From contig JAZUKI010000010.1 in NCBI GenBank assembly GCA_045643205.1, positions 1-64,000 of the forward strand: 64,000 bases of DNA. The letters are read 5' to 3'. Made by a program: the position numbers and the translations under genes. A model generated the notes under the pieces. The model saw nothing but the letters and a program-made list of their open reading frames with translations. It ran no database searches and was not told the origin of the DNA. The DNA is from Clostridia bacterium. Lineage in GTDB: Bacteria > Bacillota > Clostridia > TANB77 > CAG-508. This document shows positions 1 through 5,127 of the stretch, in pieces (position 1 is the stretch's first letter; every line of letters starts with the position of its first letter).

Positions 1-103
1 TTGAAAGTGAGCATATTTACTAATATAATTGCCATATGGCCTAGCGTTTTAGTTAAATAAATTGATTACATAATATTTAAGAACATATAAATAATATAAA
101 TTT

Positions 104-133
104 AGACAGATTAGTACAAAATCTGCCTTTTTT
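104..133 (+). terminator. Putative intrinsic terminator of the upstream transcript
   Basis: Hairpin agacagatt/aatctgcct followed by a T run. Confidence 0.5.
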
Positions 134-134
134 A

Positions 135-143
135 TGCTATAAT
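135..143 (+). promoter_or_regulatory. Extended -10 promoter at the head of the cassette array/rbgA locus
   Basis: TGCTATAAT, 32 nt upstream of the ATG at 176, which has an AAGGAG RBS. Confidence 0.55.
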
Positions 144-175
144 TATATAGATTTGAATCTTTAAGGAGTTATTTT

Positions 176-268
176 ATGAACGAAAATAAAACTAATATTA
201 ACTGGTTGATTACAATTAATTTAACCCCCTTTAGAAAGCATTGCAAAATAAGGAAAAACTCAAATTAA
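176..268 (+). pseudogene. Displaced rbgA 5' fragment #1 (MNENKTNINW, then unrelated sequence)
   Basis: aaggag RBS; aatattaactgg matches rbgA aatatcaactgg at 3831-3842 and then diverges. Confidence 0.7.
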
Positions 269-403
269 CATCTTGCATGTTTTATATAAAAATATGTTAA
301 AATAGATAAAAATTAGTAAAAAAGTACTACTTTTAACTAAAAATAGTATAGGAATTAATAAGGTGGTTACAGAAGTTAAACCCCTATAAAAAGAGGTGAA
401 CTC

Positions 404-976
404 ATGAGAAAAATAGTATTATCTTCATGTGGAATTAGGAATGAAGATTTTAAAGAGAAGTTTTATAAGTTAATTTCAAAAAATGATTTATGTAATGCAA
501 AGCTATTATACATTACTACTGCAGTTGACGGTGAACCTGATGATAATAGAGATTGGGTGGATAAAGAATATAAAACCATTTTAGATTTAGGCTTTAGAGA
601 ATCTAATATAACTGAATACAAAATAGGTAATGAAATAAATATGGATGATTTTGATATCATTTATATGATGGGTGGAAATACAATTTACTTACTTGATATG
701 ATTAGAAAGTACAATTTTGGAGAGGTAATAAAAGATTTTATTGATAAAGGTAAAATCTATATTGGATCAAGTGCTGGTAGTCAAATCATAGGTTCCACAA
801 TTAATTTATGCTCAGTATATGAAACTAATAATGTTAATATGACAGATTTTACTGCAATTGGTATATTAGATAAAGAAGTTGTACCTCATACAAATAAAAA
901 AGAAGAATTGCTTAAAAACTGTGATAAAGAAGATTTAATATTTCTTTATGATGGTGATGGAATTATAATAAATTAA
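404..976 (+). CDS. Peptidase E / S51 family (type 1 glutamine amidotransferase-like) protein
   Basis: GGNT, GSSAG nucleophile elbow and VPH motifs; gaggtg RBS. Confidence 0.8.
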   Translation: MRKIVLSSCGIRNEDFKEKFYKLISKNDLCNAKLLYITTAVDGEPDDNRDWVDKEYKTILDLGFRESNITEYKIGNEINMDDFDIIYMMGGNTIYLLDMIRKYNFGEVIKDFIDKGKIYIGSSAGSQIIGSTINLCSVYETNNVNMTDFTAIGILDKEVVPHTNKKEELLKNCDKEDLIFLYDGDGIIIN

Positions 977-990
977 AGGAGTTGATCCAA

Positions 991-1077
991 ATGAATGGTA
1001 ATAAAACTAATATCAACTGTGATGTCGGGATAAATGGAAACCATCCTAAATTCGCTGAAATGTCAAGCTTTCTTTAA
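991..1077 (+). pseudogene. Displaced rbgA 5' fragment #2 (MNGNKTNINC...)
   Basis: aaaggagttgat RBS; aaaactaatatcaactg; stop codon falls inside the conserved element. Confidence 0.7.
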
Positions 1078-1092
1078 AGATATATATTACAT
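1034..1092 (+). repeat. Conserved inter-cassette element, copy 1
   Basis: Ungapped alignment with 3114-3172 (atggaaac...tcaa.ctttctttaaagata.atattacat) at the same distance from AACTG. Confidence 0.75.
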
Positions 1093-1142
1093 TATTTTAG
1101 TAATTTTATAAGGAAATAATAATTTGAAGGTGAGATGGTAGT

Positions 1143-1556
1143 TTGGAATATAAAATAGATTATTCAATTAATGAAGAAGAATTTTTAGAAATGGTTGAGT
1201 CAGTTGGATGGAGAACATATTCAAGTGAACAAGTGACAAAGGCTTTAAAAAATACAATGTATATGGTTAAAATTTCAGTTGATGATGAAATAGTAGGAAT
1301 TGGAAGAGTTGTAGGTGATTATAGCATTGTTTGTATGTTAACAGATATATGTGTTAAACCAAAGTATCAAGGAAATGGTTTAGGGTTAAAAATAGTAAAT
1401 GAATTAAAAAGGTTAATTGAAAATGGTGTAAAAGAAGGTGAAAAATTACAAATAGAATTAACACCAACTGCTGGAAATGAAGAATTCTATAAAAAAGCAG
1501 GATTTAAGTATAAACCTGATGTGATTACTGGTATGTATTTGTGGATAAAAAAATAA
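1143..1556 (+). CDS. GNAT family N-acetyltransferase
   Basis: V.P.YQGNGLG acetyl-CoA motif A and FYKKAGF; TTG start. Confidence 0.85.
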   Translation: MEYKIDYSINEEEFLEMVESVGWRTYSSEQVTKALKNTMYMVKISVDDEIVGIGRVVGDYSIVCMLTDICVKPKYQGNGLGLKIVNELKRLIENGVKEGEKLQIELTPTAGNEEFYKKAGFKYKPDVITGMYLWIKK

Positions 1557-1566
1557 TAAATTTAAT

Positions 1567-1617
1567 ACTAGTAAAAATACTGATATATCAATATTTCTTT
1601 GAAAATACATATTACAT
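1567..1617 (+). repeat. Conserved inter-cassette element, copy 2
   Basis: 43/51 identical, ungapped, to 3122-3172; contains near-perfect palindrome aaatactgata|tatcaatattt. Confidence 0.75.
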
Positions 1618-1650
1618 TTTTTATCAAAATTTAAATAGAGGTGAATTGAA

Positions 1651-2052
1651 ATGAGCAGAATAAACAGAAAAGAACTAATAGAGCTAATAAATTCTGTGAA
1701 ATGTGATAAATCTGAATTTTGGATATTATCATCAGGTGCTTTAACTGTTAGAGGTATATATCCAGATGCTGGAGATTTGGATATTGCAGTTACGGATGAA
1801 GGATTGAAACAATTAGCAAAGAATTATGATTTAGAGCAAAAAGAAAATGGATGGTATATTGTGAATGACTTAATAGAATGCGTATGCGATGGAAAAAAAG
1901 AGACATTAGAATATCAACCTGAATTAATTGGAGATATTCAAGTACAAAATATTTATGAATATTTAAAATATCTAAAATCGAGTGAAAGGAAAAAGGATAT
2001 TGACAGAATTCCATTAGTAGAAAAATATATTAGAGAACTTGAAGAAAATTAA
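1651..2052 (+). CDS. Small Pol-beta-like nucleotidyltransferase-fold protein (putative)
   Basis: SSGAL...AGDLDIAV resembles the G[GS]-x-DxD motif; gaggtg RBS. Confidence 0.55.
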   Translation: MSRINRKELIELINSVKCDKSEFWILSSGALTVRGIYPDAGDLDIAVTDEGLKQLAKNYDLEQKENGWYIVNDLIECVCDGKKETLEYQPELIGDIQVQNIYEYLKYLKSSERKKDIDRIPLVEKYIRELEEN

Positions 2053-2096
2053 AGATAAAAGTTAAAATATTGCAAGTTATATAAATAATAAAGTTG

Positions 2097-2136
2097 GAAA
2101 GAGGGGATTTGAAAATCCTCTCTTTTGCGGTATAAT
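2097..2136 (+). terminator. Hairpin/terminator overlapping a possible promoter (TTGAAA-16-TATAAT)
   Basis: aaagaggggattt/aaatcctctctttt; tataat at 2131-2136. Confidence 0.5.
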
Positions 2137-2141
2137 ATGTA

Positions 2142-2312
2142 AAGTTATTAAAAAGAACGGAAGTATTAAAAGACGCAGGTAAAATATCACATGAAATTGC
2201 TTGTGATAAAGCATTAACAGAATTTGAAAAATACAGAGTAAAACAAGATAAATTATATAAATCAGATTTTGATTTGTTATTGGAAGAAAGTAGTGAAAAT
2301 AATGAAAAATAA
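2142..2312 (+). pseudogene. 3' fragment of a RhuM-family (virulence RhuM) gene
   Basis: Own translation EVLKDAGKISHEIACDKALTEFEKYRVKQDKLYKSDFD resembles the RhuM-family C-terminus; no start codon. Confidence 0.6.
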
Positions 2313-2436
2313 AGATTTACTTACTGATGAAGAAGAACAAATAGATAATTTAAATAGAAAAATATTAAATAAATATATTAATATGATTTATGTTATTAAT
2401 AAAAATAATATGAAAATTGAATTTAAAAAGGTTTGA
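2302..2436 (+). pseudogene. 44-aa ORF resembling the C-terminal tail of large serine recombinases
   Basis: IDNLNRKILNKYINMIYVINKNNMKIEFK resembles the L.R..L..LI..I.V......I.F tail; similarity judged by eye only. Confidence 0.35.
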
Positions 2437-2502
2437 TACAATCAATTAATAAGGTTTGAAAATTGATAATTAAGCATTAAATATAAAAATGAGGTGGATA
2501 GT

Positions 2503-3084
2503 ATGGAGTTAATAGATATATTTGATGAAAATAATAATTATTTGGGTTATTCGTTGGAACGTTCAAAGGTGCATGAAGAAAACTTATGGCATCACCATGT
2601 ATCTGCATGGATTATGAATTATAATGGTGAAATTTTACTACAACAGAGAGCTTTAAGTAAAAAGAAAAATCCTGGTAGGTGGGCAAAAACAGGAGGTCAT
2701 GTAGATGCTGGAGAAACTCCTGAAGAATCTATAAAAAGAGAAGTTTATGAAGAAATAGGTTTAAAAGTAAGTGATGATGAAATAAAGAATATTGAAATAT
2801 TTAAAAGTATTAATCCAAATGAACATTATTATTCATATGGATATATATTTTTTACTGATTACAAAGAGGATGATTTTGTGCTTCAAAAAGAAGAAGTTAA
2901 TACGGTTAAGTATTATAATATAGAAGAATTAGAAGAAATTAGAAAAAAAGACGATCAAAATTATACATTTTGTAATTGGGATGAGGCAGGATTTAATAAA
3001 CAAATACAATTATTGAAAGAATATAGAGATAAAATATCTAGTAAAGGAGTTGATTTAAATGAACGAAGAAAAAGGTTTTTCTAA
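2503..3084 (+). CDS. NUDIX hydrolase (IDI-like subgroup)
   Basis: Nudix box GGHVDAGETPEESIKREVYEEIG; LLQQR..KK..PG.W. Confidence 0.85.
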   Translation: MELIDIFDENNNYLGYSLERSKVHEENLWHHHVSAWIMNYNGEILLQQRALSKKKNPGRWAKTGGHVDAGETPEESIKREVYEEIGLKVSDDEIKNIEIFKSINPNEHYYSYGYIFFTDYKEDDFVLQKEEVNTVKYYNIEELEEIRKKDDQNYTFCNWDEAGFNKQIQLLKEYRDKISSKGVDLNERRKRFF

Positions 3085-3157
3085 GACTTCGATTAACTGG
3101 GTAATACTCTTTTATGGAAACACCAGTAAAAATGTTGATATTTCAAACTTTCTTTAA
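3059..3157 (+). pseudogene. Displaced rbgA 5' fragment #3 (MNEEKGFSKTSINW...)
   Basis: aaaggagttgat RBS; attaactgg at 3092-3100; overlaps the NUDIX stop; stop codon inside the conserved element. Confidence 0.7.
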
Positions 3158-3172
3158 AGATACATATTACAT
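3114..3172 (+). repeat. Conserved inter-cassette element, copy 3
   Basis: Matches copies at 1034-1092 and 1567-1617. Confidence 0.75.
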
Positions 3173-3229
3173 ATTTTGATTAATTTTATAAAAATAAATG
3201 ATGATATAAATAATAAAAGGGAAAAATAA

Positions 3230-3751
3230 ATGGAAAATTTAAAACAACTAAGTAATGATGAAGTAATCGATTTAATAAAAAGCGGAAATATTAAGGTAGC
3301 TGATATTGTTGATTCAGGGATATGTCCAACTTGTTTTGATAAAAACAATAATCATATTTTATATGGAAATAATGAAGATAAAATGATATTTGAAAATGAA
3401 AAATTTGAATGTTTTTTAGTAGGAAATCCAAGAGCAGAAGGGCATACGGCTATAAGTACTAAAAAACACTTTAGAGACATGATGGAGATAGATGACGTTA
3501 CTTGTAAAGAGATATTTATACTAGCAAAAAAAATAATGAATGTTTTAAAAGAAATATATAATGCTGAAAGCATATATTTGTGTACAATGTGTGATGGTCC
3601 TATGAATCATTTTCATATTCAATTAATTCCAAGATATTCTTTCGAAAAAAGAGGTTCAAAGAATTTTGTAAAACCAAGATTTGAATATAAAGAAGATAAA
3701 GAGAAGATAAAAGAATTGAGAAATAAAATAAATAATAAAGTAGGTGAATAA
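3230..3751 (+). CDS. HIT family protein
   Basis: CPTC, P...GH and HFHIQLIPR histidine-triad-like motif. Confidence 0.8.
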   Translation: MENLKQLSNDEVIDLIKSGNIKVADIVDSGICPTCFDKNNNHILYGNNEDKMIFENEKFECFLVGNPRAEGHTAISTKKHFRDMMEIDDVTCKEIFILAKKIMNVLKEIYNAESIYLCTMCDGPMNHFHIQLIPRYSFEKRGSKNFVKPRFEYKEDKEKIKELRNKINNKVGE

Positions 3752-3755
3752 AAAA

Positions 3756-4676
3756 ATGGATATGTATCAAAAAAGAAAAATGAGAAAAGAAAAGAATTCA
3801 AATGAGCAAGAAAAAAGTTGTGCAAGTATGAATATCAACTGGTATCCAGGACATATGGCTAAAACAAAAAAAGACTTAATTGAAAGTCTTAAACTAATTG
3901 ATATAATAATTGAAATACTTGATGCAAGAATTCCTAAATCAAGCAAAAATCCGGAAATGGAGCAATATACAAAAACAAAAAAGAAAATTATTGTTCTTAA
4001 TAAAGCCGATTTAGCTGATGATAATGTAACTAAAAAATGGATTGAATATTATAGGTCTAAAAATATAGTTGCAATTCCTGTTGAAGCTAATACAGGAAAA
4101 GGAATGAAAAATATTATTGCTGAAATAAAGAAAGAAGCAAAAGAAATAATTGATAAAAATGTTTCAAGAGGAAGAAGCGGATACACAACAAAAGTTATGA
4201 TTGCAGGAATTCCTAATGTTGGAAAGTCTACATTTATTAATACATTGATTGGAAAAAAAGTTGTTGTAGCAGCCAATAGACCAGGCGTTACGCAAAAGGT
4301 TCAATGGACTAAAGTTACAGATGGTGTTGAGTTATTAGATACTCCTGGAATGTTATGGCCAAAGCTACAAGATCAAGAGGTAGCAACACATTTGTCATTT
4401 ATAAATAGTGTTGGACAAAATGCAGTTGATAATGAAACTTTAGCATATACACTTTTAAAATTTTTAATAGATAATTACAAAACTAGAGTTGAAAAACGTT
4501 ATAACATTTCTATTCAAGATGAAAAAATAAACTATTATGAAGTAAGAAATGAGATAGCAAAGAATACAGGATGCTTAATGTCTGGTGGGAACATAAATGA
4601 ACAAAAAGTTTCTGATATAATATTAAAAGATTTTAGATCTGGAAAACTTGGAAAGATAACAATTGAAAGCATTTAA
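3756..4676 (+). CDS. rbgA: Ribosome biogenesis GTPase RbgA/YlqF
   Basis: INWYPGHMAK, DARIP, NKAD, GIPNVGKS, DTPG; start at 3756 (aggtga RBS) or 3828. Confidence 0.95.
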   Translation: MDMYQKRKMRKEKNSNEQEKSCASMNINWYPGHMAKTKKDLIESLKLIDIIIEILDARIPKSSKNPEMEQYTKTKKKIIVLNKADLADDNVTKKWIEYYRSKNIVAIPVEANTGKGMKNIIAEIKKEAKEIIDKNVSRGRSGYTTKVMIAGIPNVGKSTFINTLIGKKVVVAANRPGVTQKVQWTKVTDGVELLDTPGMLWPKLQDQEVATHLSFINSVGQNAVDNETLAYTLLKFLIDNYKTRVEKRYNISIQDEKINYYEVRNEIAKNTGCLMSGGNINEQKVSDIILKDFRSGKLGKITIESI

Positions 4677-4707
4677 AATAAAAAAATGATTTATTGAAAG
4701 GGTATTA

Positions 4708-5127
4708 ATGGATATTTTTGAAGAAGTATTAAAAAAAGATTTAATTGAAATAAATATGATGTCACCTTTAACATGGGCATATGTAGGGGATAATGTGTAT
4801 GAATTATATATTCGCTTACACTTAAGCGAAAATACAAATTTGAATCCACATAAGATGCATATTAGTTCAATAAAATATGTTAAAGCTAATCATCAGGCAG
4901 AAATTTTAAAATATCTTGAAGAAAATATTTTAACTGATGATGAAAAAGATATTGTTAGAAGAGGTAGAAATACAGAGAGCCATCATTTACCTAAACACGC
5001 TACAGCAGTTGATTATATGTATTCTACAGCTTTCGAAGCATTAGTAGGATATTTATATTTAACAAAACAAACTAAAAGATTAGATGTTATTTTAAAACAA
5101 TCAATTGAATTTGTTGAAAATATCTAA
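4708..5127 (+). CDS. mrnC: Mini-ribonuclease III
   Basis: AYVGD.VYEL, RRGRN, STAFEALVGYLYL. Confidence 0.9.
   Translation: MDIFEEVLKKDLIEINMMSPLTWAYVGDNVYELYIRLHLSENTNLNPHKMHISSIKYVKANHQAEILKYLEENILTDDEKDIVRRGRNTESHHLPKHATAVDYMYSTAFEALVGYLYLTKQTKRLDVILKQSIEFVENI

What the first reader, a model, noticed from the sequence alone, without database searches (positions are those of the whole stretch)
135..3842. Integron-like cassette array that appears to grow by repeated insertion into the 5' end of the essential gene rbgA
Seen: the rbgA start motif occurs four times, each with its own RBS and ATG. These are MNENKTNINW (176), MNGNKTNINC (991), MNEEKGFSKTSINW (3059) and the functional ...SMNINW-YPGHMAK (to 3842). 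Similarity to rbgA stops exactly at AACTG[G/T] in the three upstream copies. Between the heads lie 0.7-2 kb units of small co-oriented genes (S51 peptidase; GNAT, NTase-like, NUDIX; HIT), and a conserved element follows the breakpoints. Established: elements that integrate within a gene's 5' end carry a replacement 5' end and leave the old one displaced. Inference: each unit is a circularisable cassette [right arm - cargo - RBS/rbgA head] that inserts at the reconstituted site, so the newest cassette (HIT) sits next to rbgA. Units are too small to encode their own integrase, so this could be an integron-analogous gene-capture platform using a housekeeping gene as the primary site and a recombinase supplied in trans.
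Basis: partly seen in the sequence, partly recalled or inferred. Interest (0 to 1): 0.88.

Follow-up and report, generated by a model that had tools for sequence, protein, structure and literature searches.

The report
Serine-recombinase island array at rbgA
Small mobile DNA units have inserted one after another into the first codons of the essential gene rbgA, each bringing a spare gene start; relatives show that a large serine recombinase does the inserting, so this is a miniature cousin of known cassette islands rather than an integron.

Summary
Three displaced rbgA starts (176-205, 991-1020, 3059-3100) and the live one (3757-3842) all end at the same Trp codon, and a fifth lies at the end of contig C4, which synteny places upstream of this window. 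The array grew by site-specific insertion, but the agent is a large serine recombinase (LSR), not an integron integrase. In related genomes, LSR genes of 401-419 aa sit directly upstream of a replacement head plus rbgA. The head|arm junctions have dyad symmetry centred on TG of the Trp codon. One 3.03 kb LSR element is 99.7% identical in two genera whose rbgA genes are 66-73% identical. Of 32 head-to-head units in 17 genomes, 14 carry an LSR or LSR fragments and 18 carry none. This genome has no LSR of the rbgA type. A remnant of an LSR C-terminus lies at 2338-2433, and relatives have LSR fragments in front of the same HIT gene, so at least some units here are eroded elements. Contigs from other gut samples hold the same units in other combinations, joined exactly at the heads. 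Mobilisation of LSR-less units in trans therefore stays open but unproven. The closest known analogue is the staphylococcal SCC composite island.

The parts
1..60 (+). 3' end of an upstream ORF cut by the contig start (...LKVSIFTNIIAIWPSVLVK*)
   Evidence: Read from the sequence. The window is C10:1-64000. No contig overlap joins it to another contig.
55..175 (+). Hairpin with a T-run, a TATAAT-like box and the ribosome-binding site in front of head 1. In G013 the same context is joined directly to rbgA.
   Evidence: Window 55-157 is 78% identical over 105 nt to L039 14764-14863, directly upstream of the live G013 rbgA. Terminator-like hairpin at 104-128.
176..205 (+). Displaced head 1 (MNENKTNINW)
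206..403 (+). Arm I: left end (P' side) of a unit, plus the leader of the S51 gene
   Evidence: 87% identical to C4 74815-75055, where it follows another head and precedes a NUDIX gene. In G174, arm I is the left end of a 7.2 kb unit with a truncated LSR.
404..976 (+). Peptidase S51 family gene (cargo)
   Evidence: Pfam PF03575, E 2.9e-22.
975..1020 (+). Ribosome-binding site and displaced head 2 (MNGNKTNINC)
   Evidence: In run X13 a contig joins this head to the rbgA body (joint 1008->3831).
1021..1142 (+). Arm IIa (P' side)
1143..1556 (+). GNAT acetyltransferase gene (cargo). Its own head is missing here.
   Evidence: Pfam. In run X2 the gene end is followed by a ribosome-binding site and a head of type 1 (joint 1556->176, 14 letters between).
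1557..1650 (+). Arm IIc, truncated at its 5' end, with no head before it
   Evidence: 83% identical to 3119-3177.
1651..2052 (+).
   Evidence: No hit in Pfam or NCBIfam. Nucleotide matches of 68-73% in other genomes.
2064..2163 (+). Hairpin plus promoter-like module that precedes MDMY-type heads in G174. Its head is lost here.
   Evidence: 83-86% identical to G174:C19 6869-6982 and 14117-14222, each followed by an MDMY head. TTGAAA-16-TATAAT at 2109-2136. Runs X1 and X2 join 2146/2151 to 3754/3756.
2164..2314 (+). 3' remnant of a RhuM-family gene with a truncated head (ATG at 2302)
   Evidence: 92% identical over 130 nt to L036 8713-8841, where an intact RhuM gene (Pfam PF13310) lies directly upstream of rbgA.
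2338..2436 (+). Remnant of the C-terminus of a large serine recombinase
   Evidence: hmmsearch with the LSR profile: E 0.001, 17.5 bits. hhalign to the last 31 columns of alignment A2: probability 83.8%, E 7.9e-6. Contigs in X7 and X13 match from 2342 onward and differ upstream.
2494..3084 (+). NUDIX hydrolase gene (cargo)
   Evidence: Pfam PF00293, E 4.2e-22.
3043..3100 (+). Ribosome-binding site and displaced head 3 (MNEEKGFSKTSINW)
3101..3229 (+). Arm IIb (P' side)
   Evidence: In run X2 it directly follows a head of type 1 (joint 199->3095; record 24 matches 3095-3782 with 2 differences).
3230..3751 (+). HIT family gene (cargo)
   Evidence: Pfam PF01230. 85% nucleotide identity to the HIT gene next to rbgA in G315.
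3744..3842 (+). Ribosome-binding site and live replacement head (MDMYQKRKMRKEKNSNEQEKSCASMNINW), fused in frame to rbgA
   Evidence: The last 45 nt are 42 of 45 identical (counted by eye from the printed rows) to a displaced head in G174.
3843..4676 (+). Body of rbgA (YPGHMAK...), the B' side of the attachment site
   Evidence: Pfam MMR_HSR1. Orthologues found in 41 of 41 relatives.

Best explanation
The 5' end of rbgA is the chromosomal attachment site of a family of small integrative elements (about 2.5-8.5 kb) that move with a compact large serine recombinase (LSR). The site lies at codons I-N-W | Y-P-G, and the crossover is inferred to fall at TG of the Trp codon.

Each element has three parts. 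A left arm resembles the first codons of the rbgA body (the P' half-site). One to several passenger genes follow, with the LSR gene near the right end. The unit closes with a ribosome-binding site, an ATG and a replacement rbgA head (the P half-site).

Integration keeps rbgA intact and strands the previous head. Repeated integration gives a co-oriented tandem array.

In this genome the array holds no working LSR. Its units (S51; GNAT; unknown ORF; RhuM remnant; LSR remnant plus NUDIX; HIT) are LSR-less, and at least some are deletion-eroded derivatives. rbgA is now translated from the head brought by the HIT unit.

Shown: the heads, arms and units; LSR genes beside the heads in relatives; junction symmetry; horizontal spread. 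Inferred: the exact crossover, the order of insertions, the promoter role of the arms, and whether the array in this genome is now frozen.
For: 1. Same breakpoint in many genomes. Displaced heads ending at the same Trp codon occur in G004, G014, G046 and G056 (4 of 34 loci from the genus) and in G026 (1 of 6 loci from other families). They also occur in G315, G189, G174, G369, G417, G328, G366, G165, G179, G180, G252 and G150.

2. Recombinase next to the heads. Among the 30 loci fetched for the closest LSR relatives, 12 have a live head plus rbgA within 1.5 kb downstream. Four more have displaced heads only, and one is the query itself. Pfam gives Resolvase + Recombinase + Zn_ribbon_recom for 4 of 4 full-length proteins tested. 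In the species-representative collection, 15 of 80 LSR loci have rbgA downstream, 13 of them among the 17 best.

3. Site anatomy. The 33 displaced junctions show dyad symmetry. It peaks on an axis between T and GG of the Trp codon: complementary fraction 0.372 against 0.225-0.323 at the ten other axes tried. The observed count is 356 against 273 +/- 12.7, and 0 of 1000 shuffles reached it. Left of the breakpoint only the I-N-W codons are kept, and they vary at synonymous positions.

4. Mobility. The 3.03 kb LSR element is 99.7% identical in G165 and G179, while their rbgA bodies are 66-73% identical. The LSR units of G417 and G366 are 94% identical against 72% for rbgA.

5. Decay in this genome. 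An LSR C-terminal remnant lies at 2338-2433. LSR fragments lie before the HIT gene in G315 and G189. Junctions are lost at 1556/1557 and about 2314.

6. No cognate LSR here. Only two prophage LSRs on C6 match the profile, at E 1e-38 and 2e-28, against 1e-188 or lower for the eight full-length rbgA-linked ones.
Against: The left arms of three units here (IIa, IIb, IIc) and of RhuM units in G014, G046 and G044 are one discrete module of about 100 nt. It stands in front of four different genes and ends at nearly the same point each time. Independent random deletions would not be expected to end so neatly.

The HIT unit here has a different left arm from the LSR-bearing HIT units of G315 and G189. 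Similarity starts only at 3206. It is therefore not a simple deletion product of those elements.

In run X2 a 99.7% identical HIT unit follows a head of type 1 directly. This needs either a second insertion of an LSR-less unit or a unit-precise deletion.

No LSR of this family was tested on any site, and no circular form or empty site was seen, because only assembled contigs were available.

The gap between C4 and C10 is unassembled and could hide an LSR.

The genomes examined were picked by similarity to this window or to the LSR, so the counts are not prevalence figures.
Confidence: 0.75

Rival explanations
1. LSR-based cassette platform. The small LSR-less units are non-autonomous cassettes. 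Each keeps both half-sites (head and arm) and is excised and re-inserted as a circle by an LSR supplied by a sister unit or an incoming element.
For: 18 of 32 head-to-head units lack any LSR hit, and they lie beside LSR-bearing units in G150, G179, G189 and G417.

Arm II stands before four different genes and arm I before two.

The LSR-less RhuM unit is 91.6% identical over 1181 nt between G150 and G189, which belong to different families, while their rbgA bodies are 66% identical.

Contigs from other gut samples carry the same units in other orders, joined at the heads: joints 199->3095, 1008->3831 and 1556->176.

Single-gene units of 528 and 557 bp exist in G252 and G179.
Against: No circle, no empty site and no enzyme assay.

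This genome has no cognate LSR.

An LSR remnant lies in the array here, and LSR fragments sit in front of the HIT gene in relatives. Both show that erosion does produce small units.

The rearrangements seen in contigs could be unit-precise deletions or inheritance from different ancestors.

HIT and GNAT homologues usually lie away from rbgA: 2 of 12 HIT loci and 0 of 6 GNAT loci are at rbgA, and 0 of 22 metagenome contigs.
Confidence: 0.3
2. Remnants of elements with a tyrosine integrase, like the streptococcal ICEs of the Tn5253 type that integrate in the 5' end of rbgA.
For: That target is documented. The Tn5253 attB comprises 63 nt upstream plus the first 20 nt of rbgA, with Int/Xis (PMC6079316, passages read). 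ICEs with a tyrosine integrase in the 5' end of rbgA are also reported (PMC4701971, passages read).
Against: No tyrosine recombinase lies on the rbgA side of any contig in the rows listed for 44 genus genomes; 67 further rows were not listed.

This genome has one such gene, 87 kb away, and it is conserved in all 44 genomes.

There are no long direct repeats. Heads differ at synonymous sites.

LSR genes, not tyrosine integrase genes, abut the heads.
Confidence: 0.03
3. Local duplication and homologous recombination of the rbgA 5' region, with no site-specific recombinase.
For: Two truncated MDMY heads on C4 end at a short stretch shared with the end of arm I (aaaaatgag). This looks like deletion through microhomology.
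Against: It does not explain the constant breakpoint across families, the junction dyad symmetry, the LSR genes at the unit ends, or elements that are 99.7% identical in genera whose rbgA genes are 66-73% identical.
Confidence: 0.04

Closest known systems
Staphylococcal cassette chromosome (SCC/SCCmec) composite islands at orfX/rlmH
   Same: Elements moved by large serine recombinases (Ccr) insert at one end of a conserved housekeeping gene. They pile up in tandem and include units without a recombinase. The abstract of bioRxiv 10.1101/336396 describes a composite island made of a PsiSCC, an SCC with ccrC and an SCCmec (seen in the listing). The rest of this comparison is recalled.
   Different: Here the target is the 5' end, so every unit must carry a ribosome-binding site, a start codon and a replacement N-terminus. 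Units are 0.5-8.5 kb rather than tens of kb. The recombinase is one compact protein of 401-419 aa. Its relation to Ccr was not tested. The hosts are uncultured gut Bacillota.
Tn5253-type ICEs and other streptococcal ICEs integrated in the 5' end of rbgA
   Same: Same target gene and nearly the same spot. The Tn5253 attB ends 20 nt into the coding sequence. The element restores the gene's start (PMC6079316 and PMC4701971, passages read).
   Different: Those elements use a tyrosine integrase with Xis and have 83-84 bp repeats. They are 60 kb conjugative elements. Here there is a serine recombinase, no long repeat, and no conjugation genes seen in the units examined.
Accretion of ICEs with cis-mobilisable elements (CIMEs) in Streptococcus thermophilus (recalled, not read here)
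   Same: Tandem arrays form at one attachment site, and recombinase-less units flanked by att sites can be moved by a neighbour's recombinase.
   Different: That system uses a tyrosine integrase at the 3' end of fda. The units are much larger.
Integrons
   Same: Co-oriented arrays of mostly single-gene units at one site. The cargo is of the same general kind: GNAT, NUDIX and other small enzymes.
   Different: There is no intI. The junctions do not fold as single strands. The sites are double-stranded dyads typical of serine recombinases. Each unit carries a piece of the target gene.

Membership tests
Integron | intI-type tyrosine recombinase gene next to the array | tested here: not met
   One PF00589 gene in the genome, at C10:90588-91091, 87 kb from rbgA and conserved in all 44 genus genomes.
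Integron | attC sites: imperfect palindromes that fold as single-stranded hairpins between cassettes | tested here: not met
   Single-stranded DNA folds of 7 head/arm stretches, both strands: z-scores from -0.65 to +1.17 against 200 shuffles each.
Integrative element with a large serine recombinase | Gene for a protein with Resolvase, Recombinase and zinc-ribbon domains inside the element | tested here: inconclusive
   Met in relatives: 8 units have a full-length LSR of 401-419 aa and 6 have fragments, of 32 units, with Pfam domains confirmed. In this window there is only a remnant of 31 aligned residues at 2338-2433.
Integrative element with a large serine recombinase | Attachment sites with imperfect dyad symmetry around a central dinucleotide and no long identity between sites | tested here: met
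   Symmetry peak on the axis at T|GG: 356 complementary positions against 273 +/- 12.7 in shuffles, with 0 of 1000 reaching it. The junctions are related to one another, so this overstates independence. Synonymous variation occurs in the I-N-W codons.
Integrative element with a large serine recombinase | Recombination of attP with attB by the encoded enzyme; excision needs a directionality factor | not testable with these tools
   No assay was possible. Only assembled contigs of public runs were available.
SCC (Ccr-type) elements | Ccr-family recombinase and insertion at the 3' end of rlmH/orfX | tested here: not met
   The target is the 5' end of rbgA. Relation of these LSRs to Ccr was not tested. 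The resemblance is in how it works, not in membership.
Tn5253-type ICE | Tyrosine Int/Xis, direct repeats of about 83 bp, a conjugation module | tested here: not met
   No tyrosine integrase near rbgA. Repeats are limited to the short heads.
Recombinase-less units flanked by att sites (CIME-like, PsiSCC-like) | Both half-sites kept and no recombinase gene | tested here: met
   Units 205-1020 and 3100-3842 have a head, an arm and one gene, with no LSR hit.

The most novel reading that the evidence does not exclude
The LSR-less single-gene units are true cassettes. Each keeps a head and an arm that together form a complete recombination site. An LSR encoded by a neighbouring unit or an incoming element excises and re-inserts them. 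The 5' end of an essential gene then serves as a serine-recombinase gene-capture platform that works like an integron.
Probability: 0.3. Interest if true: 0.8.

Novelty: new variant of a known kind. Interest (0 to 1): 0.6.

Why it matters
It shows a compact way for mobile DNA to use an essential gene as a landing pad without harming it: every unit carries a spare start for that gene. The N-terminus and upstream signals of a ribosome-assembly GTPase are therefore swapped by horizontal transfer. In the comparisons made here, live heads are shared between families whose RbgA proteins are about 40% identical.

The recombinases are small (about 400 aa) and have a well-defined natural site. That makes them candidates for the serine-integrase toolbox.

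If LSR-less units prove mobile in trans, this would be a cassette system built on a serine recombinase, in abundant uncultured gut bacteria with genomes of 1-2 Mb.

It also explains why assemblies of these genomes often break just upstream of rbgA.

Tried and rejected
Rfam, window 1-5000 at E up to 1: only a chance snoRNA match. I had suspected a riboswitch in arm I; no support.

Promoter scan: 28 sites found against 34.4 +/- 6.3 in shuffles. The promoter role of the arms is therefore inference only.

Joining contigs by end overlap: none found.

Public runs. No run held more than 0.22 of the sampled words, and all were assembled contigs. Circles, empty sites and read-level heterogeneity could not be examined. 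Parts without cover in those runs are not used as evidence.

Metagenome scan with a pattern for the HIT motif: 22 contigs, none with a head or rbgA next to the HIT gene.

HIT and GNAT loci in other genomes: mostly not at rbgA.

NCBIfam on 10 cargo proteins: all below the curated cut-offs, and no resistance-gene equivalog.

I first recalled that streptococcal rbgA elements use serine recombinases. The paper says tyrosine.

I considered Xer/dif-type capture. The arm motif occurs nowhere else in the genome at up to 3 mismatches. I did not test dif, because I would have had to type a consensus from memory.

The prophage LSRs on C6 sit beside holin- and lysin-like ORFs (labels read by eye from the ORF list, not tested) and far from rbgA. 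I set them aside as unrelated.

Literature. Searches for rbgA or ylqF with serine recombinase or integrase found no report of a serine recombinase targeting rbgA. The supplementary tables of PMC4701971 were not seen and may list more rbgA elements.

Full report
**What is in the window**

Head 1 is at 176-205 (MNENKTNINW). Head 2 is at 991-1020 (MNGNKTNINC). Head 3 is at 3059-3100 (MNEEKGFSKTSINW). The live start reads ...MNINW|YPGHMAK, with the Trp codon ending at 3842. The best-placed initiation codon is at 3757 (MDMYQKRKMRKEK...), behind AGGTGA.

The 12-mer around the breakpoint occurs 7 times in the whole 1.0 Mb genome. Three copies lie in the first 3.9 kb of the window, and one lies 290 bases from the end of contig C4.

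Pfam confirms S51, GNAT, NUDIX, HIT and RbgA. The 'NTase-like' ORF has no family hit.

Two kinds of sequence follow the heads:
- Arm I (206-403) recurs on C4 at 87% identity.
- Arm II has three copies (1021-1142, 1557-1650 and 3101-3229). The second has no head before it.

**The array is larger than the finding**

The window begins at a contig end. In the genus the gene order is polA, a DUF1292-like gene, a 156-aa membrane protein, a variable stretch, then rbgA. In this genome the first three genes lie on C4.

The last 5 kb of C4 hold more small co-oriented genes, one complete head followed by arm I, and two truncated copies of the MDMY head. C4 ends in a repeat of itself, and no overlap joins it to C10. 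The true junction is therefore unknown.

Across the 54 relatives' loci mapped, the stretch between the membrane-protein gene and rbgA runs from 0.4 kb to more than 10 kb, and most of its ORFs are shared with no other locus in the set. In this genome, whose loci are also in that map, the stretch is at least 16 kb.

G013 has the upstream context of head 1 joined directly to rbgA, which amounts to an empty site.

**The same breakpoint elsewhere**

Displaced heads ending at the same Trp codon occur in 4 of 34 genus loci (G004, G014, G046, G056) and in 1 of 6 loci from other families (G026). Many of these loci had little upstream sequence.

More cases turned up in genomes reached through similarity to the cargo or to the recombinase: G315, G189, G174, G369, G417, G328, G366, G165, G179, G180, G252 and G150. 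G150 has six heads in a row.

Live heads fall into types that cross family lines. The last 45 nt of the live head here are 42 of 45 identical (my count from the printed rows) to a displaced head in G174. They closely resemble the live head of G026, whose RbgA is only 40% identical.

**The recombinase**

This genome has one tyrosine recombinase, 87 kb away and conserved in all 44 genus genomes. It also has two LSRs at a prophage end on C6.

The 7.2 kb unit behind arm I in G174 contains a truncated LSR. I used that protein to search 401 genomes of the order. In 12 of the 30 best loci, an LSR gene stands within 1.5 kb upstream of a live head and rbgA. Four more loci have displaced heads.

Larger stretches show a common layout: arm, one to four genes, an LSR of 401-419 aa, often one more small gene, a head, then rbgA. 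Pfam gives the three LSR domains.

In the species-representative collection, 13 of the 17 closest LSR relatives have rbgA just downstream, and only 2 of the remaining 63 do. Record titles there call the hosts uncultured Clostridia, Bacilli or Bacillota from guts.

**Site anatomy**

I aligned 33 displaced junctions and 40 live ones.
- Left of the breakpoint, only the I-N-W codons are constant, and they vary at synonymous positions.
- Right of it, the arms share two blocks within 45 nt.
- The first block resembles the H-M-A-K-T codons of rbgA, so the arm looks like a diverged copy of the gene's own continuation.

The displaced junctions have dyad symmetry that peaks on an axis between T and GG of the Trp codon: 0.372 against 0.225-0.323 at other axes. 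None of 1000 shuffles reached the observed count. The junctions are related to one another, so the test overstates independence.

This is the layout of a serine-recombinase site with TG as the central dinucleotide. The dinucleotide itself is inferred. Single-stranded folds of the junctions are no more stable than shuffles, which speaks against integron-type sites.

**Mobility**

| Pair | Unit compared | Unit identity | rbgA identity |
|---|---|---|---|
| G165 / G179 | 3.03 kb LSR element | 99.7% over 3040 nt | 66-73% |
| G417 / G366 | LSR units | 94% | 72% |
| G150 / G189 | LSR-less RhuM unit | 91.6% over 1181 nt | 66% |
| this genome / G315 | HIT gene | 85% | 66% |

In G165 the element abuts rbgA. 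In G179 a second LSR element lies between it and rbgA.

**What the small units here are**

Of 32 head-to-head units in 17 genomes, 14 have LSR hits: 8 full-length and 6 fragmentary. The other 18 have none and span 528-6176 bp. This sample was chosen by similarity and is not a survey.

Evidence for erosion in this genome:
- Window 2338-2433 matches the last 31 columns of the LSR alignment.
- Contigs from two other samples match from 2342 onward but differ upstream.
- The HIT gene follows LSR fragments in G315 and G189.
- Junctions are missing after the GNAT gene and at the RhuM remnant.

Evidence that erosion is not the whole story:
- Arm II is a discrete module in front of four different genes.
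- The HIT unit here has another left arm than in G315 and G189.
- Contigs from other gut samples join a type-1 head directly to arm IIb and a 99.7% identical HIT unit.
- Other contigs join head 2 directly to rbgA, and the GNAT gene to a ribosome-binding site plus a type-1 head.

These are unit-precise differences. They fit either separate insertions of LSR-less units or precise deletions.

Cargo genes are not tied to rbgA. Only 2 of 12 HIT loci and 0 of 6 GNAT loci in other genomes lie there. None of 22 metagenome contigs does.

**Order of insertion**

An array B|P'1...P1|P'2...P2|B' results whether the second element entered at the rbgA side or at the far side. 'Newest next to rbgA' is therefore not established. 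The X2 contig would in fact be explained with fewer events if new units entered at the far side.

**Comparison with what is known**

Integration into the 5' end of rbgA is known for streptococcal ICEs, but with tyrosine integrases and long repeats (PMC4701971 and PMC6079316, passages read).

Tandem piles of serine-recombinase elements at a housekeeping gene, including recombinase-less members, are known from SCC composite islands (abstracts in the listing; details recalled).

Three searches found no report of a serine recombinase that targets rbgA or ylqF.

I therefore rate this a new variant of a known kind. It is SCC-like in logic, miniature in size, and placed at a gene's 5' end, so that each unit must carry a replacement start.

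**Verdict**

- The mechanism is accretion driven by a serine recombinase (confidence 0.75).
- Mobilisation of the small units in trans is open (about 0.3).

Noticed in passing
Relatives' rbgA, just right of the breakpoint: L032, L037, L040, L050, L057, L059, L060, L063, L064, L068; also L128, L134, L136: In at least 10 of 34 genus loci, and in 3 of 15 loci from the later set, rbgA reads AAYTGG-TAY/TTY-CCA-C-GGN-CAY-ATG. One extra C sits after the Pro codon. The head (with its ATG) is then in frame 0, and the conserved GHM... body is in frame +1. In several genomes the +1 frame has a stop and no start codon just upstream. This may be a conserved programmed +1 frameshift at CCA-CGG in an essential ribosome-assembly gene. 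A listing of 8 of the 18 papers that hold 'rbgA' and 'frameshift' showed nothing on it. This genome does not have the extra base, and it does have a tRNA-Arg(CCG).
   Followed up: partly
G000 C4:73776-73880 and C4:74159-74264 (L071): Two more copies of the MDMY head with about 45 nt of its upstream sequence. Both are cut short after about 25-29 nt. One ends at a 9-nt stretch shared with the end of arm I, which looks like deletion through microhomology.
   Followed up: partly
G000 C4:74258-74359 and C4:75024-75125: The contig ends in a 99% identical repeat of the start of its last NUDIX gene. This could be a tandem copy of [NUDIX-head-arm I], a circular form read through, or a mix of strains. 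It explains the assembly break.
   Followed up: no
window 2164-2290 and many genomes of the order: The last 125 nt or so of RhuM-family genes are 80-94% identical at the nucleotide level in dozens of genomes from several families. That is far more than the surrounding genes.
   Followed up: no
G000 C6:97233-100149 (minus strand): Two adjacent large serine recombinase genes at the end of a prophage, next to ORFs I read as tail-fibre-, holin- and lysin-like (by eye, not tested) and beside a truncated gene I read as ComEC-like. They are only distantly related to the rbgA-linked LSRs.
   Followed up: partly
G000 genome-wide; C10:90588-91091: This genome has a single tyrosine recombinase. Most genus members also have a second conserved one of about 335 aa.
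   Followed up: no
L083, L084, L086, L079 (G357, G319, G417, G105): Away from rbgA, the HIT and GNAT homologues again lie in runs of small co-oriented genes. By eye these look like a kinase-like gene, a GATase-like gene, a BRO-N-like gene and GNAT genes; none was tested against a family library. These genomes may have further islands of the same kind at other sites.
   Followed up: no
L049 9979-14315 (G026): The LSR of the 8.5 kb unit is split into an N-terminal part and a C-terminal part by about 3 kb. The inserted stretch carries ORFs I read by eye as methyltransferase-like and ABC ATPase-like (not tested).
   Followed up: no
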